Shown: positions 23,259 through 50,402, numbered from the stretch's first letter. The stretch: 64,000 bases of DNA from an uncultured Bdellovibrionales bacterium (GCA_964609855.1 CAZSTB010000004.1:3740-67739), one strand, 5' to 3'. Translations and numbers: made by a program. The notes: generated by a model not told the origin, from the sequence alone.

Positions 23259-24431
23259 TTAAAAGAAATTATCATTAGAAACACCCAAATTAAATGGTCT
23301 ATCAAGATATTTCTTTACAATCTTGTTGTGCTCCCAATTTCTGCAGAATAACGAATTGCAGCACTCACTCCTCATTTTGCGAAAATTATTGATTGCATTA
23401 CTATCGCAATTTGGCAAATCCGCAATTTGGCAAATCGATAATTCATGCAATCTGTATTCGGCTAAGGTTAAGCAGGGATACATATAGCCGTCTGGAGCTA
23501 TCAACTGATAAGCAAGACATACGGAACATTCATCTAGACTTTCAACAAAAACATTACTGGGATTAGTGATATTAATAAGCCTGTTTAAACCACCATTGAT
23601 TAATTGAGAAAACAGACCCATATTACTCTTTCTCCTAAGAAAATATTCGAGACCTTCGCACCCCCTGAATTCATCTTTCATGTTACCCAAAAGAACAATT
23701 AATTGCTCTTTATCAGGTAAAAAATTGATATTTTCCTCATGAAGCGCTTGTGTCAATTGCGTCGGGCGAGACATCAAGAAGGCAGGTTTGAATTGGATGT
23801 GCATCCTTTCAAGAGCTCTGTTATCATCCTTATATCTCAAATACACTTCTCTTATGAAAGGAATGATATCCGACATATTCTTTCTATGGAAAAGAAAGTG
23901 CACCCCAACATGAGGAATCTCTACACAATGCTTCAGGTAGAATTCGATATTACCTAAAACTTTCCAGTATAATTCAGCGTTCCTCCCAGAGTATTTTCCA
24001 TCCTCAATTGAATATACTGAAACCCTAACCCAATCAATGCATTTTCGCCATAAACCATCGGGAATTATTACCCCGTTAGTTATTAAGCCGATTTTAACAT
24101 TTGGGATTTTTGCGAGCTTTAGAACAGCATTATCGAATTTTGGATAAAGAGTAGGTTCGCCACCGCCAGCAATCGTTATCACTTTTGGCTTTATGAATCT
24201 AGCGATATTATCCAACAACTCAAAAGGGATTTCTTTGTCGCCTAATCCACGGAAATGACAGCCTGAACAATTTAAGCAACATTTATCAGTAAGTTGCAAC
24301 TCGATATGTCCAGATTGACATAGCAAACCTCTATTTGCATCTGGTGAATCCAAGGAGATTCTCTTTTTTCTAATTAATTCCAGATGATTTAAGATTCGAT
24401 TTTTATCAGTTGCAACATTCGCATAGACCAT
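23259..24431 (-). CDS. Radical SAM enzyme with a C-terminal Cys-rich SPASM/twitch-like domain
   Basis: CLNCSGC (CxxxCxxC) cluster, GGGEPTLYP SAM-binding motif, C-terminal CSVC...C...C...CC...C auxiliary-cluster cysteines. Confidence 0.75.
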   Translation of the reverse strand: MVYANVATDKNRILNHLELIRKKRISLDSPDANRGLLCQSGHIELQLTDKCCLNCSGCHFRGLGDKEIPFELLDNIARFIKPKVITIAGGGEPTLYPKFDNAVLKLAKIPNVKIGLITNGVIIPDGLWRKCIDWVRVSVYSIEDGKYSGRNAELYWKVLGNIEFYLKHCVEIPHVGVHFLFHRKNMSDIIPFIREVYLRYKDDNRALERMHIQFKPAFLMSRPTQLTQALHEENINFLPDKEQLIVLLGNMKDEFRGCEGLEYFLRRKSNMGLFSQLINGGLNRLINITNPSNVFVESLDECSVCLAYQLIAPDGYMYPCLTLAEYRLHELSICQIADLPNCDSNAINNFRKMRSECCNSLFCRNWEHNKIVKKYLDRPFNLGVSNDNFF

Positions 24432-24462
24432 TGTAATCTCCTTGTACCCATATTATTCAGGG

Positions 24463-25662
24463 TCAGATAAAGTTAATAGACATATTGTCTTCGCATAAAA
24501 CCTTCTCGTAAATTTCATTATGAGGAGAATATGTGCACCTTGGACAGCTACTTAAATCAAGTTTATCGTACATCTTCCAATGGTTGTCATTCCCCCATAC
24601 ATTAAGAATATCCCCAATATTTCTTAGATTATGGGAAAGTTCTAACATCGAATCACCCCTCCTGTCACAGCATTGACAAAGCGTGAAAGAATCAGGATAG
24701 TCCCCAGAGTCAGGTGGTGAAAAAACAGTCGTCATAAACAATGCATGACACTTAACGAAATTGTTCTTTTTATCGAAGTCAGGCGTGAACTTATGAGTAA
24801 CTCCGTATATGGAAAAATTTTCATCTTCCATTTCCCTCGCCACTCTCAATTTATCATAAAACATCGAAATCGTTTTATCATCAAAGGAGATGTTCCCTTT
24901 CGAATACCATGGTTTGCCAACAGGTCTGATATGAATACTTTTACATCCAATTGCTTTAGCCAATTTCGTAGCCACATCAATCTCATGGACATTTCTTTCA
25001 TGAACAAGAAATTTATAGGTCACGCCAAACGACAATGGTTTTTGAGCTAAATTTGTAGAATATTTATGAGAATACTCTACTAGCTTTTGCATGTTTTTAA
25101 TGACTCTATCAAATTCAGATAAAGACACTCCTTTCAAGCCAGCAAACGTATTTGCCGCACCACTATCGACTGAAACAGAAACCCAATGACATCTGGACAA
25201 GGATTCGATAAAATCGCCAATATGGCTTCCATTGGTTACAACACCAACATCAATATCTCTATCAACAAGATTATCTATGAAGAACCCTGTTTCACTGTTC
25301 AGAAGAGGCTCGCCTCCTCCAGCTATACAAACAGCTTTCACTCCATATTTATTTCCTTTGCATTTCCAATCGCCCAATGCTTTAGCAATTTCTTCCAGAG
25401 CAACTCTGGAAAGCCGTTGCCTTGATTTTTTATTAATAATAGCTTTGGAATTACACCAAATACAATCATAGTTACATTCATTGGTTGGGTCGACAGTCAC
25501 TAAAACTGGCGGGGGGATTATTCCACCTCTTTCGATAGAACGCCAACGTTCTAAATGAGCTATTACTTTCAAGCTGTTAAAAGGATTAAAAAACCTACCA
25601 AAGCTCCATTCTCCCTCTGTTTTATTGGCTAAGTCTTGACTTTCTTTTTCTGAATGTTTCAT
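24463..25662 (-). CDS. Radical SAM enzyme with a C-terminal Cys-rich SPASM/twitch-like domain (paralogous to the upstream neighbour)
   Basis: CNYDCIWC (CxxxCxxC), GGGEPLLN motif, C-terminal CQCC...CPRC...C cysteines; RBS GGAGA 8 nt upstream. Confidence 0.75.
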   Translation of the reverse strand: MKHSEKESQDLANKTEGEWSFGRFFNPFNSLKVIAHLERWRSIERGGIIPPPVLVTVDPTNECNYDCIWCNSKAIINKKSRQRLSRVALEEIAKALGDWKCKGNKYGVKAVCIAGGGEPLLNSETGFFIDNLVDRDIDVGVVTNGSHIGDFIESLSRCHWVSVSVDSGAANTFAGLKGVSLSEFDRVIKNMQKLVEYSHKYSTNLAQKPLSFGVTYKFLVHERNVHEIDVATKLAKAIGCKSIHIRPVGKPWYSKGNISFDDKTISMFYDKLRVAREMEDENFSIYGVTHKFTPDFDKKNNFVKCHALFMTTVFSPPDSGDYPDSFTLCQCCDRRGDSMLELSHNLRNIGDILNVWGNDNHWKMYDKLDLSSCPRCTYSPHNEIYEKVLCEDNMSINFI

Positions 25663-26544: not shown

Positions 26545-28128
26545 TTAATCCACATGCTCAACTGGAATTTCAATAATAAATCTTGAGCCTTTTCCTTCTC
26601 CGTCTGATTCAACCCACATTTTACCATGATTAGCTTCAACTACTTTCTTGCCGAAATATAATCCGAGTCCGGTTCCGGTGGATGTTAATCTTTTCTGATT
26701 ACTTCCACGTGAGAATTTACCAAATATATTTCCCAGATCTTCTTTCGGAATACCAATTCCAGTGTCAGAAACAGTTATGCGCACCGCCTTAGCTTGCAGC
26801 TTAGCGCTGACAATGACACTCCCCGCTTTCGTGTATTTTAGAGAGTTATCAACAAGATTAGAAACGGCTTCAAAAATCTTACCTCGGTCTATCGAGACTA
26901 GTGGCAATGATTTTTTAGGAAGCTCAAGTGATAACTTTAAGTCCTTCTCCTTAGCTGAAAGTTCGAATGAATCAACAATTTCCTTTAAGATATTTTCAAT
27001 TTTCTCATTTTTAAATTCGAAAACCATTCTTCCAGATTCAATTCTCGAAATATTCAAAAGATCTTCAACCAAATGAAGCAGTCGATTGTTAGCATTGCTG
27101 ATTCTATCCAAAGGATGCTTTAATTCCTCAGGAATTACTCCATAATTTCCCTCAGAGATGAGTGATAAAAACCCTTTCGAGGTAGTTAACGGTGTCCTTA
27201 ATTGATGAGATGCGATTGAGATAAATTCCGATTTCGCTTCATCAAGTTTTCGAAGTTGCGCATTGGCAATTTCAAGTTCTTCTTTTCTCAATACTTCTTC
27301 CCTAACAGATTTTATCAAAAGGTAACCGAATATAATCGAAAATACAAGCATCACGATTGCCGCGGAAAACTCATAAAATCCCTTTGTTATGAATATTTCT
27401 ATAGTTAAGAATATCCAAAGTGAAAAGGTAAATAATTCTGTTGTAATTATTTTTACATTTAAAAAATGGTATTTCAATATCGCCAAGAAAATAATAAATC
27501 CAAATACTGAGGTATACACTGGAGCTAAAATTGTAAGGTAAAAAATTCCCAACAATGGTAAAATCAAGTTTGTTCCAATAGCTAACAATAAAAAAATGGA
27601 AATTCCCAACAGAAGAAGCTGCATGGAATTTTTTATTTCAGAATTTTTTTCAAAATAATACTTAGTAGAGATACGTATAGCAGCATACGCAAGAGTTCCT
27701 AGCATATATATACTATAAACCAACATACCCCAACCGAATTCCAAATCAACAATTCCATCATTCGGTATAATTTTTTTTATCAACACTGGACTTAAGCTAA
27801 TAGCTAAAACAAAGATAAATAGAATTGCGATAATAGATTTCCACACGCTCTGCATTCGCTGATCTTCAGGGAATGTTTTTGCAAACATCGCTAATCCAGT
27901 GCCAAATATCGCAGTAAAGAAAAAAATTAATTTATTAATCCAAGTAAGTGCATTTATTGAATATTCAAGATTAGAGTAATAATTAGCGATTATCCAACCC
28001 GAGAGACCAATAATTGACCAAAAGAGATATCTTCCCGATAGTGATTTTCTTAAATGAATAGCAATTAAAACTAGTAATAAAAAATTAGCAAAAACACTTA
28101 CTAATAAAGTAATGAACTGTCCATTCAT
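26545..28128 (-). CDS. Sensor histidine kinase with N-terminal 7-8 TM sensor domain (HisKA + HATPase_c)
   Basis: H-box SHQLRTPLTTSKGF; coiled-coil linker; C-terminal G1/G2 boxes (DTGIGIP, GTGLGL). Confidence 0.85.
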   Translation of the reverse strand: MNGQFITLLVSVFANFLLLVLIAIHLRKSLSGRYLFWSIIGLSGWIIANYYSNLEYSINALTWINKLIFFFTAIFGTGLAMFAKTFPEDQRMQSVWKSIIAILFIFVLAISLSPVLIKKIIPNDGIVDLEFGWGMLVYSIYMLGTLAYAAIRISTKYYFEKNSEIKNSMQLLLLGISIFLLLAIGTNLILPLLGIFYLTILAPVYTSVFGFIIFLAILKYHFLNVKIITTELFTFSLWIFLTIEIFITKGFYEFSAAIVMLVFSIIFGYLLIKSVREEVLRKEELEIANAQLRKLDEAKSEFISIASHQLRTPLTTSKGFLSLISEGNYGVIPEELKHPLDRISNANNRLLHLVEDLLNISRIESGRMVFEFKNEKIENILKEIVDSFELSAKEKDLKLSLELPKKSLPLVSIDRGKIFEAVSNLVDNSLKYTKAGSVIVSAKLQAKAVRITVSDTGIGIPKEDLGNIFGKFSRGSNQKRLTSTGTGLGLYFGKKVVEANHGKMWVESDGEGKGSRFIIEIPVEHVD

Positions 28129-28213
28129 AATTAAATAATCATTATTAACTTATATCCTCATCTAATTATATTTTAAAGCGCACGTCATGGCAATGCATGA
28201 CGTGCGCTTATCA

Positions 28214-28828
28214 TCAGGAAATCAACATCTCATAAAAAGCATTCTGCTTCTTCTCGAAAGATGCCATCTGTTCATCCATATTGAGAACACAAAGTACCGT
28301 TGATGAACCCATGTAAAACATGGGGTTCCCAATGCGGTGAATCCGCCAACCGACCATATCCATAACCCGCAGAGCTCTTGCATCAATGGCAATCAGCCAG
28401 TGTTTAATATGATTGTTGAGACTGTAGAGAAGGCTTGTTTTATAAATTCCCCAGGAAACTTTCTTGTCATTATTTCCTTTTCCCACAGCCAAAGCGCCAA
28501 CAACAACAGACTTTCCGGACTCAAATTTACTTATATGTTCTAACGCGCACTCCTTTAATTGACCATCCCACAATGTAAGGAGCTCATTCGCGCAAACGAT
28601 TGGCGAAAACTTCAACGTCCCTAACACATTATCATCACAATATGCGACAACGTACTCGTCTTCCTTGTGATTGTCAGGAATGATTCGATCAGGATATGCA
28701 TTCTCAATATATCCCAAATCTAAATAAACATCGTGCCTCAATTTTTGGGCCATCTCTCCTAATGTACCAGCTTGAGTGACAAAATATCTTACACCTTGAA
28801 AACTACTCATCTCTTGAGCCGTGTTCAT
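28214..28828 (-). CDS. GNAT-fold N-acyltransferase of the LuxI / FeeM N-acyl amino acid synthase-like family
   Basis: RHDVYLDLGY (cf. LuxI RxxVFxxxLGW), EDEY acidic cluster, YCDDNVLGTLKF (cf. LuxI YKDNNLIGSARL); overlaps the thiF-like gene by 4 nt. Confidence 0.5.
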   Translation of the reverse strand: MNTAQEMSSFQGVRYFVTQAGTLGEMAQKLRHDVYLDLGYIENAYPDRIIPDNHKEDEYVVAYCDDNVLGTLKFSPIVCANELLTLWDGQLKECALEHISKFESGKSVVVGALAVGKGNNDKKVSWGIYKTSLLYSLNNHIKHWLIAIDARALRVMDMVGWRIHRIGNPMFYMGSSTVLCVLNMDEQMASFEKKQNAFYEMLIS

Positions 28829-29592
28829 AATCCCCCCTTTTTGATTGTAAAGTCATAAGTATCAAAGAACAATATATTTGGAACAGTTACGGGTTTTTCA
28901 TTTCTGATCACAAATGAAATAACCTGACTGGAAACCATTGCTGCAACCAATGCAACCGAGGAGGAAATGCTTGGCATTGACATTTCGCCACCCAAAACTT
29001 TCTCGAGCATCTCATTTGAGATATATGCAGGAACCTCTGGCATATATTTCATTGCATCGATACTACTATCATTTTCATTATATTCAAAATATTCTTCAAA
29101 TGTCATTCCACTAGGATCAAAACAAAGAGTGCTTGAACCCCATCCAATATTAGCACCCATAAAAACAAATTTATTCTGGATTCTTGCTTCTTTCGCCAAC
29201 ATTACAGATATTTCAGGCACTGAATATTCAATTTCATCAATAATTATGTCAGAGTAATTCACAAACTCTTTTACATTCTCTTCGGTGATGCCCTGATTAA
29301 AAACCACCACCTTAATGTCTGGATTAATTTTTCGCAGCTCCTGAGCAACAACTTCTGCTTTATTCTTACCCAATGTTTCAGAATTTGAACCAAACTGCCT
29401 ATTTATATTTTGTACTTCAAAAAACTCAGGGTCTGCTAAGATTATCGTTCCAACTCCAAAACGAGCAAGTCTTTCAGCCAGAAGACCACCATCCCCACCC
29501 GCACCAGCAATTGATATTGAAAGTTTTGATATTTTTTCTTGCTGCCATTCAGTAACGAAACCTATATTTCTTTCAAATAGTTTATTTTTCAT
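28825..29592 (-). CDS. ThiF/MoeB/HesA-family E1-like adenylyltransferase (no CxxC zinc motif)
   Basis: Nucleotide-binding motif IAGAGGDGGLLAERLARFGVGTIILADPEFFEVQNINRQ. Confidence 0.75.
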   Translation of the reverse strand: MKNKLFERNIGFVTEWQQEKISKLSISIAGAGGDGGLLAERLARFGVGTIILADPEFFEVQNINRQFGSNSETLGKNKAEVVAQELRKINPDIKVVVFNQGITEENVKEFVNYSDIIIDEIEYSVPEISVMLAKEARIQNKFVFMGANIGWGSSTLCFDPSGMTFEEYFEYNENDSSIDAMKYMPEVPAYISNEMLEKVLGGEMSMPSISSSVALVAAMVSSQVISFVIRNEKPVTVPNILFFDTYDFTIKKGGL

Positions 29593-29600
29593 AAATTTGT

Positions 29601-31325
29601 TTATGCCACATGCTCCACTGGAATCTCAATGATAAATCTTGAACCGAGGTCGGCGCCATCAGATTCAACCCAGACTTGGCCGTGGTGGGCTTCGGCGATT
29701 GCTTTGCCAACGTAGAGCCCGAGGCCGGTTCCGCCAACGTGAAGACGTGAAACGTCTTTTCCACGTGAGAATTTCTTGAAAAGATATGGAATTTCCTCCC
29801 TTGGGATTCCTATTCCAGTATCAGAAACTGTGATGCGAACCATCTGACCAAATTCAGATTTCTTCTCCGGAATAACGAAACCATTTTCATCGATCAAAAC
29901 TCCAGTTTCTTTAAGCTCAGCCTTTACGGTCACACCGCCCTTTTCCGTATATTTCAACGCATTATCAATGAAATTAGAAACCAGCTCTCTAATCTTAGTA
30001 TAATCCATGATAATTTCAGGCAGTGGGGTTTCGGGAAGCTTTAAGTCAAGATAAAACTTTTTCGTTTTTGCTATCAAAATGAAGTTATCATTTAATTCCT
30101 TGATGAGTTTTTCAACATTGGATTTTTCAAAAGCAAATTGCATACGTCCCGATTCAATTCGAGAGACATTGAGCAAATCTTCAATTAAACTCACTAAACG
30201 CTCAGAAGATGAATAAACTTTTTCCATTGCCCCCTTAACGCTTTCGGTTAATTCTCCATATGAACCCTCGAGCAAAAGTGAAGCAAATCCCTTGATTGCC
30301 GTAATCGGAGTTCTGAGTTGATGAGAAGCAATTGAGATAAATTCAGTTTTCGCATTATCCAACTTCCTAAGCTGATCATTCGCCGTAGCTAATTTATCAG
30401 CCATTGCCTGAAGTTGCTCCTTGCGTTCAACTTCTTGCTTGACAGACCTAATGAGCATATATCCAAAGCCAAGGGATAACGCTAGCGTCACTCCAGTTAA
30501 AACCATCGCCGTAGTGTTTTGAACGAAGAAGAATTGTGAACCGACAAGCAAAATCATGGAGACTACCAATGCTTGTGCACCAATTAGCTTTATTTCAAAT
30601 GTTTTATATTTAACAATCATATAAGCAAGGAAAGCCACAAAAATAGGCATTCCAAAAAGCTTATACTGCTCAAACTTCCAATCAAGCTCCATTGTAATAA
30701 GAAAGTTTCCAATTGAAAAAGTTATCAACAAAATCACAATTCCCAAGGTAAAAAGCAAAATTTGCTTCTTATGTGCTACTTCAGCCTTTTTGTATCCCCT
30801 TATGGTAACTCCCGCTATCCATAAAATCAAAAGAATTTCCACAATATAAATATATATCCAAAGTGGCCCCTCAAAAGCCGCCCTATCGCAATTCGTTAAA
30901 TCATAGCCCAATAAATTATAGCGAGTATGCGTTAAAAAAATAACCGGCAAAAAAACCAAACTTACCAATATTTTCTTAAGAAAAGAAATGTCCGTGCCGT
31001 AAACAAATAAATAAGTTAAGTACAGAGCTGCTGCATACATAAGAAGCTCTAATGGAGCCATTGCTGACCAAAAAAACATGATGTATTGATCTTTTTCGCT
31101 TGCCCATAATATCAAATCAAAATAAACCCACAATGAAAACACAACTGTTAAAAAAAACAAAATTTTGTTTATCAACTCTTTTCTTCCTTTAAAAAAAACG
31201 AAGAAGCCAATAATCAAAGATAGAATAAGAGGTACCAAATGAGAATAGTAAATCAAGGGCTCATACACATTTGCTGAAAAAATAAGGAATTTCGCAGCAT
31301 CCCAATTACAAGATAGTGGATCCAT
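29601..31325 (-). CDS. Sensor histidine kinase with N-terminal multi-TM sensor domain (paralogue of 26545..28128)
   Basis: H-box SHQLRTPITAIKGF; HATPase_c G-boxes; same architecture and linker (QLRKLDxAKxEFISIASHQLRTP) as the other HK. Confidence 0.85.
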   Translation of the reverse strand: MDPLSCNWDAAKFLIFSANVYEPLIYYSHLVPLILSLIIGFFVFFKGRKELINKILFFLTVVFSLWVYFDLILWASEKDQYIMFFWSAMAPLELLMYAAALYLTYLFVYGTDISFLKKILVSLVFLPVIFLTHTRYNLLGYDLTNCDRAAFEGPLWIYIYIVEILLILWIAGVTIRGYKKAEVAHKKQILLFTLGIVILLITFSIGNFLITMELDWKFEQYKLFGMPIFVAFLAYMIVKYKTFEIKLIGAQALVVSMILLVGSQFFFVQNTTAMVLTGVTLALSLGFGYMLIRSVKQEVERKEQLQAMADKLATANDQLRKLDNAKTEFISIASHQLRTPITAIKGFASLLLEGSYGELTESVKGAMEKVYSSSERLVSLIEDLLNVSRIESGRMQFAFEKSNVEKLIKELNDNFILIAKTKKFYLDLKLPETPLPEIIMDYTKIRELVSNFIDNALKYTEKGGVTVKAELKETGVLIDENGFVIPEKKSEFGQMVRITVSDTGIGIPREEIPYLFKKFSRGKDVSRLHVGGTGLGLYVGKAIAEAHHGQVWVESDGADLGSRFIIEIPVEHVA

Positions 31326-43260: not shown

Positions 43261-43334
43261 TCTCAGCTTCCACAAATATAGCCAAGAAAAAAGCAACGCC
43301 TTTTACGGTGTTGCTTTTTTTGTTGCTTTAAATT

Positions 43335-43558
43335 TAAAATAAAAGGTATTAACCCCGGGGCAAGCCCCGAACCCCTTGGGTTTCCGCGGCCCGTCTCGCC
43401 CTAGGCTTGCCGAGGTGGACCTGTCTCGTTTGGCACTCGCCAAGGCGGGCAAGCCGCGAGGTACCTGCCTGCCGGCAGGCAGGTTAAACCTATTTGATGT
43501 CATCACTCGCTCGGAAACGAAAATTCATTTTCATTTCGCTCGACTTCGTTCGACAATA
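43335..43558. repeat. GC-rich ~220-bp repeat, family C copy C1
   Basis: About 85-90% identical over ~160 bp to 50243-50402 (AAAAGGTATYAACCCC...GCAAGCCCCGAACC...GGGTTTCCGCGGCCCGTCTCGCCC...GGCTTGCCGAGGTGGACC...CGAAACRAAAATTCATTTTCRTTTCGCTCGACTTCGTT); contains the CCTGCCTGCCGGCAGGCAGG palindrome. Confidence 0.8.
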
Positions 43559-43670
43559 ATCTCCTATTAAAATTCAAATTAGTTTGAAAAGAAATTCTTT
43601 TATTGCTCGCTACGAATATTATCCTGCATCCCATGTACTACAGCATGTAGAAAGGAGGTGAATAAAACAT

Positions 43671-43889
43671 ATGGCAAATCAAAATAGAGGGTTGGCTAGC
43701 GCAGATGAAAAAACTAGACGTGAAGTTGCTAGAAAAGGCGGTCAGGCCGTAAGTCAAGACAGACAACATATGTCTGAAATTGGTAGAAAAGGTGGTCAGA
43801 CCGTAAGTCAGGACAAAAGGCATATGTCTGAAATTGGAAAGAAAGGTGGCGAAGCCTCACACTCTGGAGGTCGCCCATCGAATAGATAA
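43671..43889 (+). CDS. KGG-repeat general stress protein (YciG-like)
   Basis: Three (K/R)KGGQ(A/T)VSQD(R/K)(Q/R)HMSEIG(R/K)KGG repeats; strong RBS AAGGAGGTG 8 nt upstream. Confidence 0.6.
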   Translation: MANQNRGLASADEKTRREVARKGGQAVSQDRQHMSEIGRKGGQTVSQDKRHMSEIGKKGGEASHSGGRPSNR

Positions 43890-45064: not shown

Positions 45065-45349
45065 CTACTGATTAAGTGGCTTTTGTCTAAGCTCACTAAT
45101 AAGACAGATGTTTTTGAATACCATAGTTTTTCCATCTTGCCCCTCCTTAACGTTTTCCGTAATTCCGAAAGAATAAGTTTTACCCTCCTCAACTCCAAGT
45201 TTTTTAAAATCAGCTTGCGCTCTGCTCTCTTGACCGTCTTTTTTCATTTGAAAGAAAGAATAAAAACCGCCATTCGCCTTTATTGATGTCCGATTATTGT
45301 CAGTTTTAATTTCTTCCACTGTCATTTCCAAGAATTTGATATCACTCAT
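45065..45349 (-). CDS. Hypothetical small protein
   Basis: ORF only. Confidence 0.3.
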   Translation of the reverse strand: MSDIKFLEMTVEEIKTDNNRTSIKANGGFYSFFQMKKDGQESRAQADFKKLGVEEGKTYSFGITENVKEGQDGKTMVFKNICLISELRQKPLNQ

Positions 45350-45438: not shown

Positions 45439-45469
45439 AAAAAAAGACCACCGGCTTAGCCAAGTGGTC
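45439..45469 (-). terminator. Rho-independent terminator 3' of the REC-rSAM gene (GACCAC-N12-GTGGTC followed by a 7-nt U-run on the minus strand)
   Basis: Hairpin plus T-tract seen directly. Confidence 0.6.
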
Positions 45470-45535: not shown

Positions 45536-46906
45536 TTAGTTGCGCCATTCTTTGCCATACGATACCGTAGTACCGCAGCTTATTCCGCTTCCGATATCAT
45601 TGCCTCCCACATTTACTCTGTAACGAGCATTCAAACCCGCCTGGTTCAATCGGTCAACGAAGCGAAGTGCTTCGCTCTCATTACAGTCTCGAGGAAAATC
45701 CGGCAAGCAACCACGCGTTGCCAACATAATTTTCTGATCAATCATGTGCCAATCCTTGCAAAATTCAACAATCGCTTTTATATCTTTCTTACCATCATTT
45801 AAATCTTTTTTCAACATCCAGTTTAATGTCCAAGGGTTTGGAGACAGTATCTCCCTCGTTTCAAATAAACATTGGCTTTTCGTCATAGGTAATAGCCATG
45901 GGCGTATTACCTGATCAAATGAATGGACTGACAGATTTATTTTCACCGGCCTTCCTTCGAGACGCGGCAAAAACTTTTTCAAAACTGCATTATTTCCTAT
46001 CGTGGGAATTACGTGCTTAATATTCAGAAAAGCAGTTTGAGCAACTCCGTCAATCCGTTCCACGAACTTGCAGCTATTTTCCGGATTAAAAATAAAATCT
46101 CCTCCCACTGTTTGCAGAACCTTTATTTCCTGATCCATATAAGAAAGACTTTCAAGCGCCAAAGATGATTTGAGACCAGCTAAAAATTGTGCGCCCATCT
46201 CTGAATCAGTAAGCCTGATCGCTTTCCTATTTTTTCCGGTTCTACACATTCTGCACTCTCCAAAGCAACCAACCATATTTGAGATACAAATATTGATGAC
46301 TCTACGCGACTTCCCGGGCGGATAATAAACAATGGAGCGAACGCATGATGTCTTTCTTGCTCGCATAAGACGATAATCAATTTCCTCAAGTGATGTAGTC
46401 TGATAATCAAATTGCTTTCTAGCAATTTCAAGTAGCAGTTTTTGACTGAGGGGCGACAATTGATTTTCAATTTCTTCAATAATGTCGTTTCTAGTACTCT
46501 TCTGCTTTTTCAATAACCAAAGATCCAACACCGGCCTCGTCATTAAGCGCTCGGAATCCTGCTTTTCAATGCAGCGAAATCTGCCGTTCAGACTACGGTG
46601 CCAGCCCCCAATATCATTGGTCATTAGGCATAGGCAAGGTTCTCCATATTTTTCGGCAATTATTTCGAGTAATTCCACACCACGCTCATCGCGTTCCAGG
46701 TAATCATCAGCCAAAATGATATCGATTTTCCATTGCTTTAGCATCCGTAGCGCTTGCTTGGAATTTTTTGATACAAAAACCAGACAAGTCTTCTGGAACC
46801 ATAAAATAAGCTTGGATGAATGCTCCTCTTTCGTTACAATTAAGATTTTAGGTTTTTGATTGAATTCATCTCGCATTTTTATCTCCCTTGTTATGTATTT
46901 TTTCAA
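45536..46906 (-). CDS. Fusion protein: N-terminal receiver (REC)-like domain + RlmN/Cfr-family radical SAM RNA methyltransferase core
   Basis: REC-like block KILIVTKEE...IDIILADDYL...; rSAM block VYYPPGKSRRVINICISNMVGCFGECRMCRTG aligns with RlmN [29 protein letters not shown]; further RlmN-like blocks LSVHSFDQVIR, MLKKDLNDG, GSGISCG (RlmN AACGQL). Confidence 0.65.
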   Translation of the reverse strand: MKKYITREIKMRDEFNQKPKILIVTKEEHSSKLILWFQKTCLVFVSKNSKQALRMLKQWKIDIILADDYLERDERGVELLEIIAEKYGEPCLCLMTNDIGGWHRSLNGRFRCIEKQDSERLMTRPVLDLWLLKKQKSTRNDIIEEIENQLSPLSQKLLLEIARKQFDYQTTSLEEIDYRLMRARKTSCVRSIVYYPPGKSRRVINICISNMVGCFGECRMCRTGKNRKAIRLTDSEMGAQFLAGLKSSLALESLSYMDQEIKVLQTVGGDFIFNPENSCKFVERIDGVAQTAFLNIKHVIPTIGNNAVLKKFLPRLEGRPVKINLSVHSFDQVIRPWLLPMTKSQCLFETREILSPNPWTLNWMLKKDLNDGKKDIKAIVEFCKDWHMIDQKIMLATRGCLPDFPRDCNESEALRFVDRLNQAGLNARYRVNVGGNDIGSGISCGTTVSYGKEWRN

Positions 46907-47007
46907 ACAAAGTATGAACCAAAAACGGAGTTGAAATTTAGTTATTAAGGAACTGTCTCAATAGGAACCAGCTATAATATCATCATTCATTGTTATTGTC
47001 AATACCC

Positions 47008-48561
47008 TTATTTAGCATTCTTCGGAAGATACACGGAAAACATTGAACCTTCGCTGGGTGTACTCTCTACCTTAATTTCTCCACCATGACTATCCACAAC
47101 CCATCTACAGATTGACAGCCCCAAGCCACTGCCGCCTTCACTGCGAGACCTGGATTTGTCGGCGCGATAGAAGCGTTCAAACACATGCGGAAGATGTTCA
47201 GTCTCAATGCCAATTCCCCCATCTTTAACGCTGAAGGCAACTTCACTTCCCAGATCTTCTGTTTCAACATTTATCCAGCCACCAATCTTATTGTATCTTA
47301 TGGCGTTTTTTATTAAATTAAAAATCAGCTTTTCCAGCTTTTGTTCATCCGCCATCATTACAAGCTCAGTCTCCCCCGCGAATGAGATTTTAACTTTTTT
47401 TTCTTGAGCGATTATACTTAAAGCCTTGCAAGCGTTACGAATTTTCTCATTCAAATCAATCTGACGATATTCTAAATGCTGCTTGAGCGAATCTGAATTA
47501 GCCAGCAAGGAAAGATCTGTCATCATGATAGATATTCTGCTTATTTCTTCCAATATCTGATGATAGGCTTCATTATTTTCTTTCTTGATTCCACTATCGA
47601 TTTCCAACTGCCTGACAGAAAGCTCCAAATTGCACTGGATAATAGCCATTGCGGTTCTGAGCTCATGAGAAACATCCGCCATAAAAGTTGATTTGAGATT
47701 CAAAACCTTATTCAATTCAGCATTCGTGCGATCTAATTCAAGGGTCCTTTGCTCAACTTTTTTCTCCAAATTATCGTTTAATTTCTGAAGCTTGTTTTTT
47801 GAAACAATGAGTTCCGTATTATCCACGGCCATAGAAAGTGCGCCTTCAATTTCTCCCTTTTCATCGCGCAGCGGTACAGCGATTATTTTAAGATATTTTT
47901 CCCCTAGCGCGTTTTTTTCAAAGCATTTATCTTTTATTATCTCCTTCCCATCTGTAAGAAGTTTTTTGTAGTCTTCAACAAGATTTTCTCGAATAAAAAA
48001 TTCACTAGAAAATATATTTTTCTTTCGAAAATCTTTAGTACTAGATAAGCTATGGAAATATTTGTTAGCTGAAGTCATGAAACCATCTTTATCTATGGTT
48101 ATCATGCTAATCGGCGCATTATCTAAAATTTTATGATGAAGCTGGCTCATGCGCTTATTTTCCTCAGAAATTTCACCCTTAGCAGCTCCAGCAGCTCGAG
48201 TCTTTTTACGGTTCAGCAGATTATCTATTCGCCTACTCAATTCTTCCAGAGAAAAGGGCTTGAGCATGTAATCATTAGCGCCAGCTTTCATTCCAATCAT
48301 CCGATCCTTAGCTGTATCGCGCGCCGTAAGCATGATAATCGGAGTTTTAATCTTTAAGCTACGTAATTGCTTGCAGATTTCTATGCCATCCATCTTGGGT
48401 AGCATCAGATCAAGGATTATCAGATCGTAACCCCCCTTTTTACTCATTTCAAAACCTCTCTTGCCGTCAAAAGCCAAATCTACTTCAAACTTTTCCATTT
48501 CAAGGCCTTTTTTGAGTAAATTTGCAATCTTAAGCTCGTCTTCAATTATCAATATTTTCAT
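47008..48561 (-). CDS. Hybrid two-component protein: REC + PAS + HisKA + HATPase_c
   Basis: N-terminal CheY-like domain (ILIIEDE...LIILDLMLP...KP), central PAS-like region, H-box SHELRTAMAII, C-terminal G-boxes. Confidence 0.85.
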   Translation of the reverse strand: MKILIIEDELKIANLLKKGLEMEKFEVDLAFDGKRGFEMSKKGGYDLIILDLMLPKMDGIEICKQLRSLKIKTPIIMLTARDTAKDRMIGMKAGANDYMLKPFSLEELSRRIDNLLNRKKTRAAGAAKGEISEENKRMSQLHHKILDNAPISMITIDKDGFMTSANKYFHSLSSTKDFRKKNIFSSEFFIRENLVEDYKKLLTDGKEIIKDKCFEKNALGEKYLKIIAVPLRDEKGEIEGALSMAVDNTELIVSKNKLQKLNDNLEKKVEQRTLELDRTNAELNKVLNLKSTFMADVSHELRTAMAIIQCNLELSVRQLEIDSGIKKENNEAYHQILEEISRISIMMTDLSLLANSDSLKQHLEYRQIDLNEKIRNACKALSIIAQEKKVKISFAGETELVMMADEQKLEKLIFNLIKNAIRYNKIGGWINVETEDLGSEVAFSVKDGGIGIETEHLPHVFERFYRADKSRSRSEGGSGLGLSICRWVVDSHGGEIKVESTPSEGSMFSVYLPKNAK

Positions 48562-48646
48562 AATTTTAAAAGGCTATAAAAAACTGAGCATTTTTAATCT
48601 AAATGCCATTGAATAATTAACTGGATACTATACATCAATATTAATT

Positions 48647-48671
48647 AAAAAGCAACCCCTCCCGGAGTTGC
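48647..48671 (-). terminator. Hairpin GCAACCCCTCCCGGAGTTGC followed by a U-run (minus strand) 3' of the sigma-factor gene
   Basis: Seen directly. Confidence 0.5.
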
Positions 48672-48694
48672 TGACAAATTAAACTAAACACCGC

Positions 48695-49402
48695 TTATGG
48701 GAGCTTGAAATCAATTGGCTGCTCTTGCTGCTGCACAACTTCAAGTAATTTTCTTTTAGCGCGATTAATCAATGTCCCGACCGTGTTAACAGGTTTTCCC
48801 AAAATTTTACTAATATCCTCATAAGAATGCTCCTTAAAATACCTCAAATGCAGCGCGCGTTGGTATTTTTCAGGGAGTTTTTCCATCGCCTGCTTTATTT
48901 CCCTGGAAATTTCTTCCTGCATCCATTTATCCTCATAAGACTCATCGTTAGCGGCAGTCTCCAACTTATCCTTGCTCGTCACCACCTCGTCCCATGAAAC
49001 GGTATAGCGCTTACTTTTGCGCTTGAGAAAATTTACCGACTCATTATGTGCTATTCGATATATCCAAGAAGAAAATTTTCTGGTCGTATCAAAATATTCG
49101 ATGTTCTTAAAAGTCTTTAAAAATACAGCTTGCAGGATATCCTCTGTTTCGTCGCGATTACCAACCAGATGAAATATGTAAGTAAAAAGTTTTTTTTGAT
49201 ATCGAAGATGCAATTCTGCGCAAGCAAAACTGCTGTTTTTTCTCACGAGTGCAATTAGTTGACCGTCATCAAGCTGGGTAAATTCTTGAACATCTACCTT
49301 TCCGCCAAGCAAGGGACTGAATAATAGTTCATTCTTAGTCTTATTGCCATTGGAAATTTTCAACTGCATATTCGCTGCTTTTTTTTGCGTCTTGATTTTC
49401 AT
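48695..49402 (-). CDS. RNA polymerase sigma-70 family factor, ECF-like (regions 2 and 4)
   Basis: Region 2 (DILQAVFLKTFKNIEYFD...SWIYRIAHN) and region 4 HTH (YEDISKILGKPVNTVGTLINRAKRKL). Confidence 0.75.
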   Translation of the reverse strand: MKIKTQKKAANMQLKISNGNKTKNELLFSPLLGGKVDVQEFTQLDDGQLIALVRKNSSFACAELHLRYQKKLFTYIFHLVGNRDETEDILQAVFLKTFKNIEYFDTTRKFSSWIYRIAHNESVNFLKRKSKRYTVSWDEVVTSKDKLETAANDESYEDKWMQEEISREIKQAMEKLPEKYQRALHLRYFKEHSYEDISKILGKPVNTVGTLINRAKRKLLEVVQQQEQPIDFKLP

Positions 49403-49574
49403 AACTTCATATTAAGATTAATTTATTAATGCCCGTATCACTTAGCTGTTGAGCTTAGTCATACATTATGCATTAACAATCATTAAGATATGATTAAGTT
49501 ACAAAGTATCAGTATTACTTGCTTTATTTTGCCATTTGTGCTATACTAGTAGGTTAATTAGTTGCTCAATATCT

Positions 49575-50249
49575 ATGAAGATTCTTATCGTTGAAGACCA
49601 GGAAAAATTAGCCAAACTCATTCAAAAGGGGCTTATTCTTGAGGGTTTTAGTGCTGATTACGTTCTGGACGGCGAAGAGGCCGCAAATCGCATTGCGGTT
49701 CATCATAGCGAGTATGATCTTATTATTCTGGATTACATGTTGCCCAATAAAAGCGGCCTGGAGATTTGCAGTCAAACAAGAGAAAGAAAAATTGCGATTC
49801 CGATTCTCATGTTAACCGGCAAAGATGCCTTGCCTGACATTACAGCTGGTTTAAATTCCGGCGCTGATGACTATCTCACTAAACCTTTTTCCTTTGACGA
49901 ACTAGTTGCCAGAATTAGAGCCATTTTACGCAGACCAAAAATAACTCTGCCATCCACGCTACAGATTAAACATGTTCAACTCGATCCTCTTGCTAAAATT
50001 GTCACCTGCAATAAAAAACTTGTAAGCTTAACTCTACGAGAATTCAGCCTCTTGGAATATTTAATGCGTCATGGCGACGAAGCACTTTCACGCGAAACCA
50101 TTCTTTCTGGCGTATGGGATTTTGCGTTTGATTCATTCGCTAATGTCGTAGATGTACATATTGCCAATTTAAGAAAAAAACTTGGAGATCTTGATGGTAA
50201 GATAATTGAGACAGTGCGTGGTATCGGATATAAGATGAATACAAAATAA
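49575..50249 (+). CDS. OmpR/PhoB-family response regulator (REC + winged helix)
   Basis: MKILIVEDQ...LIILDYMLP...ADDYLTKPF receiver; C-terminal LTLREFSLLEYL...VRGIGYKM wHTH; start set at internal Met 49575. Confidence 0.85.
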   Translation: MKILIVEDQEKLAKLIQKGLILEGFSADYVLDGEEAANRIAVHHSEYDLIILDYMLPNKSGLEICSQTRERKIAIPILMLTGKDALPDITAGLNSGADDYLTKPFSFDELVARIRAILRRPKITLPSTLQIKHVQLDPLAKIVTCNKKLVSLTLREFSLLEYLMRHGDEALSRETILSGVWDFAFDSFANVVDVHIANLRKKLGDLDGKIIETVRGIGYKMNTK

Positions 50250-50402
50250 AAGGTATCAACCCCTGAGCAAGCCCCGAACCTTCTGGGTTTCCGCGGCCCG
50301 TCTCGCCCGAGGCTTGCCGAGGTGGACCCGTCTCGCCTGACGCTCGGGTAGGCAGCGAAACAAAAATTCATTTTCGTTTCGCTCGACTTCGTTTGAAGAT
50401 AA
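50243..50402. repeat. GC-rich repeat, family C copy C2
   Basis: See 43335-43558; the two overlapping long ORFs over it (50069..50407 and 43303..43506) share translated sequence only because of the repeat. Confidence 0.8.

What the first reader, a model, noticed from the sequence alone, without database searches (positions are those of the whole stretch)
45536..50249. Receiver-domain fused to an RlmN/Cfr-family radical SAM methyltransferase, inside a signalling island
ORF 45536..46906 carries an N-terminal CheY-like block (KILIVTKEE ... IDIILADDYL, with an Asp at the canonical phospho-acceptor position). This is followed by a core with the RlmN/Cfr hallmarks, CFGECRMC cluster included (…VYYPPGKSRRVINICISNMVGCFGECRMC…, LSVHSFDQVIR, L-NDG block, GSGISCG). 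Canonical RlmN/Cfr enzymes have a small N-terminal RNA-binding domain here; replacing it with a REC domain suggests a phosphorylation-controlled RNA C-methylation activity. Known bacterial RlmN/Cfr enzymes are constitutive; I am not aware of a described REC fusion. The gene sits directly next to a REC-PAS-HK hybrid (47008..48561), an ECF-type sigma factor (48695..49402) and a divergently transcribed OmpR regulator (49575..50249), so the whole block looks like one signal-to-RNA-modification module.
Basis: partly seen in the sequence, partly recalled or inferred. Interest (0 to 1): 0.7.

Follow-up and report, generated by a model that had tools for sequence, protein, structure and literature searches.

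The report
Receiver-fused RlmN-like radical SAM enzyme
A Moranbacteria-like (CPR) genome encodes a two-component receiver domain fused to a divergent RlmN/Cfr-like radical SAM core; it belongs to a small undescribed family that nearly always follows a histidine kinase gene, which suggests signal-controlled radical methylation, though this copy has lost the receiver's metal-binding acidic pair.

Summary
A 446-aa gene (45536..46876, minus strand; true start is the ATG at 46876, not the TTG at 46906) encodes a receiver (REC) fold fused to an RlmN-like radical SAM core (AF2 pLDDT 90.9; ten best PDB fold matches all RlmN). It is not a one-off or an artefact. An exhaustive profile search found about 79 full-length representatives with the same architecture. 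Every member carrying a taxon name is CPR/Patescibacteria, and no paper found describes the family. A histidine kinase lies directly upstream in 9 of 11 loci, usually with an OmpR-type regulator nearby. It is not an RlmN or Cfr orthologue: 38 bits against a 290-bit cutoff, no RlmN N-terminal RNA-binding domain in any of 66 members, and a separate clade in a core tree. The CxxxCxxC cluster and the C355-like methyl-carrier Cys are invariant. The C118-like resolving Cys is present here but in only 16 of 79 members (34 of 35 in canonical RlmN-like proteins). This copy's receiver keeps the acceptor Asp, Thr and Lys but has Thr-Lys in place of the acidic Asp-Asp pair (a natural CheY D13K-like state), so conventional phosphorylation is doubtful here. 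Substrate unknown; RNA adenine is the default inference.

The parts
45536..46876 (-).
   Evidence: ORF list; SD AAGGGAG before ATG 46876; public call P0001 is 446 aa; dN/dS 0.13 against the 89% orthologue
46502..46876 (-). Receiver (REC) domain, aa 1-125; acceptor Asp57 (46706-46708), Thr86 (46619-46621), Lys105 (46562-46564); acidic pair replaced by Thr15-Lys16 (46829-46834)
   Evidence: AF2 secondary structure is (beta-alpha)5; Foldseek REC matches at TMt 0.76-0.82; alignment to CheY and to the two neighbouring receivers; family column counts; coordinates checked
46307..46501 (-). Linker, aa 126-190: two helices (126-148) and three extra beta-strands (149-184) that extend the barrel sheet; occupies the place of the RlmN N-terminal helical domain
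   Evidence: AF2 model; TIGR00048 alignment starts only at model position 36; no PF21016 RlmN_N hit in 66 of 66 members; Cfr residues 26 onward align to profile positions 103 onward
45539..46306 (-). RlmN/Cfr-like radical SAM core, aa 191-446: C118-like Cys197 (46286-46288), CxxxCxxC Cys204/208/211 (46244-46267), GGD SAM motif (aa 258-260), C355-like Cys434-Gly435 (45572-45577)
   Evidence: Foldseek ranks 1-10 all RlmN; family profile against PDB: RlmN 6fz6 4e-43, Cfr 9p0p 3e-41, E. coli RlmN 2.5e-38, with residue alignments; column counts; coordinates
46974..47002 (-). Promoter-like site TTGACA-17-TATTAT (11 of 12, TG-extended) in the 131-nt spacer between kinase and REC-rSAM genes
   Evidence: Consensus scan; best match in the 8.5-kb region, but the total number of matches equals the shuffle expectation, so suggestive only
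45439..45469 (-). Terminator-like hairpin GACCACTTGGC-TAA-GCCGGTGGTC followed by T7, 67 nt after the stop codon
   Evidence: Sequence; inner part reported by the scan
47008..48561 (-). Hybrid histidine kinase: N-terminal REC, PAS, HisKA, HATPase_c (517 aa); candidate cognate kinase
   Evidence: Pfam: Response_reg 103.7 bits, HisKA 33, HATPase_c 100.3, PAS_4 21.5 (weak); a kinase lies directly upstream of the fusion gene in 9 of 11 loci
48695..49402 (-). ECF-type sigma-70 factor (public aa, from ATG 49369)
   Evidence: Sigma70_r2 and r4_2; TIGR02937 at 106.6 bits against 42.9; also present in the orthologous locus L001
49575..50249 (+). OmpR-family response regulator (REC plus winged-helix), divergently transcribed; probable second output of the same kinase
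   Evidence: Response_reg 90.1 bits, Trans_reg_C 87.5 bits; an OmpR-type regulator is listed next to the kinase/REC-rSAM pair in L001, L006, L008, L009 and L010

Best explanation
The gene encodes a member of an undescribed, apparently CPR/Patescibacteria-restricted family of enzymatic response regulators. An N-terminal receiver domain has replaced most of the RNA-binding N-terminal domain of an RlmN/Cfr-like (class A-type) radical SAM methylase. In the family as a whole, the kinase encoded directly upstream most likely phosphorylates two outputs in parallel: an OmpR-type transcription factor and this enzyme. Receiver phosphorylation would then gate the radical SAM active site. Shown: the fold, the architecture, the conserved residues, the synteny and purifying selection. 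Inferred: (a) Catalysis uses the RlmN-type methyl-cysteine route, in which SAM methylates the invariant C-terminal Cys (Cys434 here), a 5'-deoxyadenosyl radical from the CxxxCxxC cluster activates it, and it adds to an sp2 carbon. (b) A second Cys resolves the adduct; it is Cys197 (the C118 position) in this protein and apparently relocated to the 'TCxGD' motif in its closest relatives. (c) The substrate is an RNA adenine or a related nucleotide. This particular copy and its 89% relative have Thr/Ala-Lys where receivers have the Asp-Asp Mg2+ site. By analogy with CheY D13K, this copy is probably poorly phosphorylated. It may be locked in one signalling state or regulated by docking to the kinase instead of by phosphotransfer. 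Its receiver is still under purifying selection.
For: Architecture and fold: AF2 pLDDT 90.9, pTM 0.88; Foldseek ranks 1-10 all RlmN, E 4e-17 to 2e-12, next radical SAM family at 8e-7; REC matches at TMt up to 0.82. Family: the exhaustive profile search gave about 79 full-length representatives ranking above canonical-size RlmN/Cfr-like proteins. 60 of 66 hit Pfam Response_reg and 66 of 66 hit TIGR00048 at E<=0.01. One NJ split separates 78 fusion cores from 38 of 39 canonical-type cores. Catalytic residues: CxxxCxxC 79/79; C355-like Cys 78/79 at the same spacing as in RlmN. Receiver residues in the family: Asp57 70/79, Thr/Ser 73/79, Lys 72/79, first acidic residue 59/79; 61/79 keep a full set. 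Synteny: kinase directly upstream on the same strand in 9 of 11 loci, down to 23% protein identity; an OmpR regulator nearby in most. Degenerate acid pair: alignment with CheY and both neighbouring receivers; CheY D13K is poorly phosphorylated yet constitutively active (PMC4671073). Selection: omega 0.147 (REC) and 0.103 (rSAM). Second Cys: the ten closest representatives each have exactly one of Cys197 or Cys257; Fisher p=0.011 family-wide, not corrected for phylogeny. Taxonomy: the window's ATP synthase beta clusters with Ca. Moranbacteria proteins; named members are Ca. Staskawiczbacteria, Ca. Taylorbacteria and 'Patescibacteria group'.
Against: No biochemical evidence for any activity or substrate. 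The RlmN N-terminal domain, which carries the positively charged RNA-binding surface (PMC2836569), is absent. The resolving Cys that is essential in RlmN/Cfr (PMC9692996) is missing at its canonical position in 63 of 79 members, and 21 of 79 have no Cys at any of four nearby positions, so the class A mechanism may not hold family-wide. A HAD-IA phosphatase is fused or adjacent in 3 of 11 loci, which hints at a phosphorylated small-molecule substrate. The near-consensus promoter-like site between kinase and enzyme genes means co-transcription is not assured here.
Confidence: 0.6

Rival explanations
1. It is simply the host's housekeeping RlmN (m2A2503 in 23S rRNA and m2A37 in tRNA) that happens to carry an N-terminal receiver, with unchanged substrate and chemistry.
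For: RlmN is the closest characterised relative by sequence and fold. This protein retains both the C118-like and the C355-like cysteines. Its core is net basic, +8. No canonical RlmN lies in the 64-kb window.
Against: 37.9 bits against the 290-bit equivalog cutoff, and equally close to Cfr at profile level (150.8 against 144.5 bits). The RlmN_N RNA-binding domain is absent in 66 of 66 members. The family forms a separate clade. Ordinary RlmN with the full [19 protein letters not shown] signature exists in Patescibacteria (P0303), so the fusion looks like a paralogue. The C118 position is not conserved in the family (16 of 79 against 34 of 35).
Confidence: 0.15
2. The enzyme acts on a non-RNA substrate, such as a phosphorylated small molecule or free nucleotide, and may perform chemistry other than RlmN-type methylation. 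The receiver controls a metabolic or signalling step.
For: Loss of the RNA-binding N-terminal domain. Variable second Cys. An orthologous HAD-IA phosphatase lies directly downstream in L008 and L013 and is fused to the C-terminus in P0009 with an intact DxDG motif. An HD-domain protein lies next to P0018.
Against: HAD linkage is seen in only 3 of 11 loci and not in this window. All RlmN core motifs, including the methyl-carrier Cys loop, have counterparts. The core remains basic. No small-molecule member of the RlmN/Cfr group came up in the papers read here.
Confidence: 0.2
3. Artefact: a frameshift, misassembly or decaying pseudogene that joins a response-regulator gene to a radical SAM gene.
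For: Individually weak domain scores for this protein. A mosaic divergence pattern against the 89% relative.
Against: The identical protein is found on three independent contigs. About 79 diverse representatives share the same architecture and length. A confident single-chain AF2 model, pTM 0.88. dN/dS of 0.10-0.15 in both halves.
Confidence: 0.01
4. The N-terminal domain is not a receiver but another flavodoxin-like module, for example a flavodoxin or a cobalamin-binding domain as in class B radical SAM methylases.
For: The folds are related. Foldseek lists the cobalamin-dependent enzymes OxsB and TokK at E 8e-7 to 9e-5. The window protein's Pfam Response_reg score is below threshold.
Against: The OxsB and TokK matches have TM-scores of only 0.15-0.27. 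The family profile hits Spo0F, YycF, NtrC and other receivers at E 1e-20 to 6e-23. 60 of 66 members hit Response_reg, best E 2.7e-22. The receiver signature residues (DD, D, T/S, K) are conserved. A histidine kinase is the conserved neighbour.
Confidence: 0.02

Closest known systems
RlmN (dual-specificity 23S rRNA A2503 / tRNA A37 C2-methyltransferase; class A radical SAM methylase)
   Same: Same core fold (ten best PDB matches). CxxxCxxC cluster, an (E/G)GD counterpart of the GMGEP SAM motif, and a C-terminal loop Cys at the same spacing as C355. This protein also has a Cys at the C118 position. The extra beta-strands preceding the core are retained.
   Different: N-terminal helical RNA-binding domain replaced by a receiver. 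38 bits against a 290-bit cutoff. 'CG(T/S)T' in place of 'CGQL'. C118 position not conserved in the family. Separate clade. Always next to a histidine kinase. Restricted so far to CPR bacteria.
Cfr (23S rRNA A2503 C8-methyltransferase, antibiotic resistance)
   Same: About as close as RlmN at profile level (144.5 against 150.8 bits). Same class A features.
   Different: The same differences as for RlmN. Nothing here links the gene to antibiotic resistance or mobile resistance elements.
Enzymatic response regulators (REC fused to a catalytic output: CheB methylesterase, PleD/WspR GGDEF cyclases, RpfG HD-GYP, RssB, PorX)
   Same: REC-plus-enzyme architecture encoded beside a kinase. Foldseek and profile hits include PleD, RssB and PorX receivers. 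The logic of phosphorylation gating a catalytic domain.
   Different: The output is a radical SAM enzyme, for which I found no described precedent. This copy has a degenerate acid pocket.
Atypical or pseudo-receivers, and the CheY D13K mutant
   Same: Lys at the position of the second Mg2+-binding Asp, with the acceptor Asp, Thr and Lys retained.
   Different: Here the substitution is natural, fixed in two related lineages (Thr-Lys and Ala-Lys), and lies in an enzyme-linked receiver. Its effect on signalling is untested.

Membership tests
RlmN/Cfr (class A radical SAM methylases) | CxxxCxxC [4Fe-4S]/SAM motif in a partial TIM barrel | tested here: met
   CFGECRMC at aa 204-211; 79 of 79 in the family; barrel predicted at high confidence; ten best PDB folds are RlmN
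RlmN/Cfr (class A radical SAM methylases) | Methyl-carrier Cys in the C-terminal loop (RlmN C355 / Cfr C338) | tested here: met
   Cys434-Gly435 aligns with RlmN 'AACGQ'; 78 of 79 in the family; spacing of 230 residues from the cluster against 218-235 in canonical proteins
RlmN/Cfr (class A radical SAM methylases) | Resolving Cys seven residues before the cluster (RlmN C118 / Cfr C105), conserved and essential (PMC9692996) | tested here: inconclusive
   Present in this protein (Cys197) but in only 16 of 79 family members, against 34 of 35 canonical-size RlmN-like proteins. The nearest relatives instead have a Cys in 'TCxGD'.
RlmN/Cfr (class A radical SAM methylases) | N-terminal helical RNA-binding domain (Pfam RlmN_N, PF21016) | tested here: not met
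   No PF21016 hit in any of 66 members, whereas canonical relatives P0139 and P0157 hit it at E 1e-15 to 1e-16. Only about two helices remain between the REC domain and the beta-extension.
RlmN/Cfr (class A radical SAM methylases) | Score above the curated equivalog cutoffs (TIGR00048, NF008396, TIGR04432, NF000424) | tested here: not met
   37.9 against 290, 15.9 against 633, 20.9 against 550, and 24.1 against 530 bits. The best family member reaches only E 2.5e-34 on TIGR00048.
RlmN/Cfr (class A radical SAM methylases) | Methylation of adenine C2 or C8 at 23S A2503 or tRNA A37 | not testable with these tools
   Needs biochemistry or RNA mass spectrometry
Two-component response regulator receiver (REC, PF00072) | (beta-alpha)5 flavodoxin-like fold | tested here: met
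   AF2 strands and helices at residues 10-124; Foldseek to ArcA, HupR and others at TMt 0.76-0.82
Two-component response regulator receiver (REC, PF00072) | Phospho-acceptor Asp at the end of beta3, Thr/Ser at the end of beta4, Lys at the end of beta5 | tested here: met
   Asp57, Thr86 and Lys105 (446-aa numbering); 70, 73 and 72 of 79 in the family
Two-component response regulator receiver (REC, PF00072) | Acidic pair after beta1 that binds Mg2+ (CheY D12/D13) | tested here: not met
   Thr15-Lys16 here and Ala-Lys in the 89% relative, against DD in P0003 and ED in both neighbouring receivers. 59 of 79 family members have Asp at the first position.
Two-component response regulator receiver (REC, PF00072) | Pfam gathering score | tested here: not met
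   18.7 bits against 30.2 for this protein. The family as a whole qualifies: 60 of 66 hit, best E 2.7e-22.
Two-component response regulator receiver (REC, PF00072) | Encoded with a cognate histidine kinase | tested here: met
   Kinase directly upstream on the same strand in 9 of 11 loci
Two-component response regulator receiver (REC, PF00072) | Phosphotransfer from the kinase to the Asp | not testable with these tools
   Needs an in vitro phosphotransfer assay

The most novel reading that the evidence does not exclude
The family is a third, CPR-specific branch of class A-type radical SAM enzymes that serves as the catalytic output of a two-component system. An environmental signal sensed by a PAS kinase would be converted directly into radical C-methylation of a target other than A2503/A37: an RNA site, or a nucleotide later processed by the associated HAD phosphatase. 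The resolving cysteine would have migrated within the active site during evolution. This would be the first radical SAM enzyme shown to be controlled by receiver phosphorylation, and the first signal-dependent RlmN-type modification.
Probability: 0.3. Interest if true: 0.8.

Novelty: new variant of a known kind. Interest (0 to 1): 0.6.

Why it matters
RlmN and Cfr are the only characterised class A radical SAM methylases, and in the literature read here they are described as unregulated, stand-alone enzymes. A monophyletic sister group wired into two-component signalling would add a new enzymatic output class to response regulators. It would also give a natural system for asking how a radical SAM active site can be switched allosterically. 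The pattern of the second cysteine (canonical position, 'TCxGD' position, or neither) is a natural experiment on how the covalent enzyme-substrate adduct is resolved. The family appears confined to CPR/Patescibacteria, organisms with tiny genomes (0.8-Mb contigs carry it). A kinase-linked RNA or nucleotide modifier retained in such genomes is likely to be physiologically important, for example in tuning translation in response to host or environmental cues. The window's own copy, with a natural D13K-like receiver, offers a built-in comparison between phosphorylatable and degenerate versions.

Tried and rejected
(1) Word-indexed homologue searches. The single-protein search found only 3 proteins. 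The full-length family profile was swamped by generic receiver proteins. The rSAM-only profile gave just 8 hits. The family was recovered only by the exhaustive profile search. (2) The genome-contig scan failed with the wide alignments. With A1 it found one irrelevant REC hit, so the host genome is not in that collection. I therefore could not test whether the host also has a canonical RlmN. (3) The afdb50 fold library was unavailable and model coordinates are not exposed. The REC/active-site interface and the Cys197-Cys257 distance were therefore not measured. (4) The low-divergence tract inside the gene, considered as an embedded RNA element: folding z-score +0.28, rejected. (5) Net charge as an indicator of RNA binding: the cores of the fusion family and of canonical proteins are both basic, so it is not discriminating. 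(6) Frameshift or misassembly: rejected. (7) Flavodoxin or B12-binding identity of the N-terminal domain: rejected. (8) Literature searches for REC-radical SAM fusions, for RlmN/Cfr family surveys, and for CPR two-component systems with radical SAM enzymes found no description. Kaminska et al. mention only 'an additional small subfamily of unknown function', without detail.

Full report
OBSERVATION. The ORF reported at 45536..46906 exists on the minus strand. Its listed start is a TTG. Thirty bases downstream an ATG (46876) is preceded by AAGGGAG at the right distance, and public gene calls use it, giving 446 aa (P0001). The host is a CPR bacterium close to Candidatus Moranbacteria, because the window's ATP synthase beta falls in a 90% cluster with Moranbacteria MAG proteins. 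The surrounding DNA is ordinary chromosome: ParAB, aminoacyl-tRNA synthetases, enolase and transporters.

BOTH DOMAINS ARE REAL BUT DIVERGENT. Alone, the protein scores below every curated threshold: Pfam Response_reg 18.7 bits (cutoff 30.2), no Radical_SAM hit, RlmN TIGR00048 37.8 bits (cutoff 290), Cfr models 21-24 bits (cutoffs 530-550). With a 66-sequence family alignment, AlphaFold2 gives a confident single-chain model: pLDDT 90.9, pTM 0.88. It shows a (beta-alpha)5 domain (residues 10-124), two linker helices (126-148), three extra strands (149-184) and the barrel (193-420). In Foldseek against PDB, RlmN structures take ranks 1-10 (E 4e-17 to 2e-12) and the next radical SAM enzyme appears at 8e-7. 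Receiver domains match at target TM-scores of 0.76-0.82.

IT IS A FAMILY. Word-indexed searching found only three proteins: the protein itself, an 89% relative and a 35% relative. An exhaustive profile search of 1.84 billion representatives found 123 hits at E<=1e-10. About 79 of these are full-length proteins (400-520 aa) with the same REC-rSAM architecture. Canonical-size RlmN/Cfr-like proteins appear only below about 1e-12 and match the core alone. Of 66 members scanned, 60 hit Response_reg (best 2.7e-22), 41 hit Radical_SAM, none hits RlmN_N, and all 66 hit TIGR00048 weakly. The family profile hits RlmN (6fz6, 150.8 bits), Cfr (9p0p, 144.5 bits) and E. coli RlmN (135 bits) about equally. 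In a neighbour-joining tree of the core, one split separates 78 fusions from 38 of 39 canonical-type sequences. Members that carry taxon names are Ca. Staskawiczbacteria, Ca. Taylorbacteria and 'Patescibacteria group'. Pipelines call them 'response regulator', 'hypothetical protein' or 'RlmN'. Ordinary RlmN also exists in Patescibacteria (P0303), so the fusion family looks like a paralogous branch. I found no paper describing it.

CATALYTIC RESIDUES. Class A radical SAM methylases are defined by two conserved cysteines. One carries the methyl group (RlmN C355). The other resolves the covalent enzyme-RNA adduct (C118) and is essential (PMC9692996). In the fusion family the cluster cysteines are 79/79 and the C355-like Cys is 78/79, at RlmN-like spacing. 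The C118 position is Cys in only 16/79 (Gly 34, Ser 13, Ala 13), against 34/35 in canonical-size relatives from the same search. The window protein does have it (Cys197). Its five nearest relatives do not; they carry a Cys in the 'TCxGD' SAM motif, where the window protein has Val257. Each of the ten closest representatives has exactly one of the two. Family-wide the two positions are negatively associated (Fisher p=0.011, not corrected for phylogeny), but 21/79 have neither and no Cys at two other nearby positions. My reading is that the second Cys has been relocated in some lineages and possibly lost in others; this is inference. Both positions lie at the C-terminal ends of adjacent barrel strands, but I could not measure distances.

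THE RECEIVER. Family-wide the receiver is canonical: first acidic residue 59/79, acceptor Asp 70/79, Thr/Ser 73/79, Lys 72/79, and 61/79 keep a full set. I aligned the window protein to CheY and to the two bona fide receivers next door. It keeps Asp57, Thr86 and Lys105 but has Thr15-Lys16 at CheY D12/D13. The 89% relative has Ala-Lys and the 35% relative has Asp-Asp. CheY D13K is poorly phosphorylated yet constitutively active (PMC4671073; bioRxiv 10.1101/781468). The degenerate receiver is not decaying: omega is 0.147 for REC and 0.103 for the core.

CONTEXT. In 9 of 11 loci a histidine kinase lies directly upstream on the same strand. These are the window, L011, L001, L006, L008, L009, L010, L012 and L013. 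Gaps are 32-138 nt and the loci reach down to 23% protein identity. One of the two remaining loci ends before the upstream gene (L014). The other has a divergent PAS-GGDEF gene (L005). An OmpR-type regulator is next to the pair in most loci, single-domain receivers are frequent, and the ECF sigma recurs in L001. This supports a branched two-component system with a transcriptional output and an enzymatic output. In this window the 131-nt spacer holds a near-consensus promoter-like site and the gene ends in a good hairpin-T7 terminator, so it may also be transcribed alone. A specific HAD-IA phosphatase is directly downstream in L008 and L013 (orthologues, 35% identity, E 5e-34) and fused C-terminally in P0009 with an intact DxDG motif. 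It is absent from this window.

MECHANISM. Best-supported, at about 0.6 confidence: an enzymatic response regulator whose RlmN-type methyl-Cys chemistry is gated by the receiver. This copy's receiver probably no longer accepts phosphate normally. Shown: fold, architecture, residues, synteny and selection. Inferred: chemistry, substrate and the regulatory consequence of Thr-Lys. Rivals: housekeeping RlmN with an appended receiver (0.15); a non-RNA, possibly phosphorylated small-molecule substrate (0.2); artefact (0.01); a non-receiver flavodoxin-like domain (0.02).

VERDICT. The protein is RlmN/Cfr-like, not an RlmN or Cfr family member. The fusion is a recurrent CPR family, not a singleton. 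Phosphorylation control is plausible for the family but doubtful for this copy. RNA as the substrate is unproven. Novelty: a new variant of known kinds (enzymatic response regulator; class A-like radical SAM enzyme), apparently undescribed. Interest 0.6.

Noticed in passing
window 46306-46576 (gene nt 301-570, aa 101-190); also gene nt 1021-1110: Mosaic divergence against the 89% orthologue (L011). About 270 nt differ at only 4 positions (dS 0.024 over aa 126-190) while the flanks differ at roughly 20%. The adjacent kinase is only 67% identical with saturated dS. There is no RNA-structure signal (z +0.28). A recombination tract or a strain-chimeric metagenome contig is the most likely cause.
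   Followed up: partly
window 43331-43559 and 50238-50402: A GC-rich composite direct repeat (116-nt and 46-nt parts, 85-89% identical; copy A has an extra insertion of about 64 nt) occurs exactly twice in the window. The copies bracket the 6.9-kb block from the 72-aa gene to the OmpR regulator, which includes the REC-rSAM/kinase/sigma genes. No Rfam match, modest folding z-scores (-1.7 and -2.2), and no exact 24-mer match in JGI metagenome contigs. It could mark a cassette boundary or be an unknown structured RNA.
   Followed up: partly
window 23259-25662 (-) and 26545-31325 (-): Two tandem radical SAM genes (390 and 399 aa; cluster motif near the N-terminus; Pfam Radical_SAM only; not RlmN-like) lie just downstream of two further histidine kinase genes (26545-28128 and 29601-31325). 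This is a second kinase/radical SAM neighbourhood in the same 64 kb.
   Followed up: no
L008 7217-7888, L013 4587-5261, P0009 residues 485-666: An orthologous HAD-IA phosphatase (best but sub-threshold matches to PpaX and phosphoglycolate phosphatase models) is adjacent to, or fused with, REC-rSAM proteins in three lineages. This is a possible clue to the substrate or to receiver dephosphorylation.
   Followed up: partly
window 45065-45349 (-): A 94-aa protein with no Pfam or NCBIfam match lies directly downstream of the REC-rSAM gene. It is conserved at the same position in the 89% relative's contig (L011) and is followed by PAP2 phosphatase and SPW-repeat membrane proteins.
   Followed up: no
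window 43671-43889 (+): A small 72-aa ORF contains an internal 54-nt tandem duplication (43721-43774 and 43775-43828, 83% identical) that encodes a repeated 'GGQ.VSQD..HMSEIG.KGG' motif.
   Followed up: no
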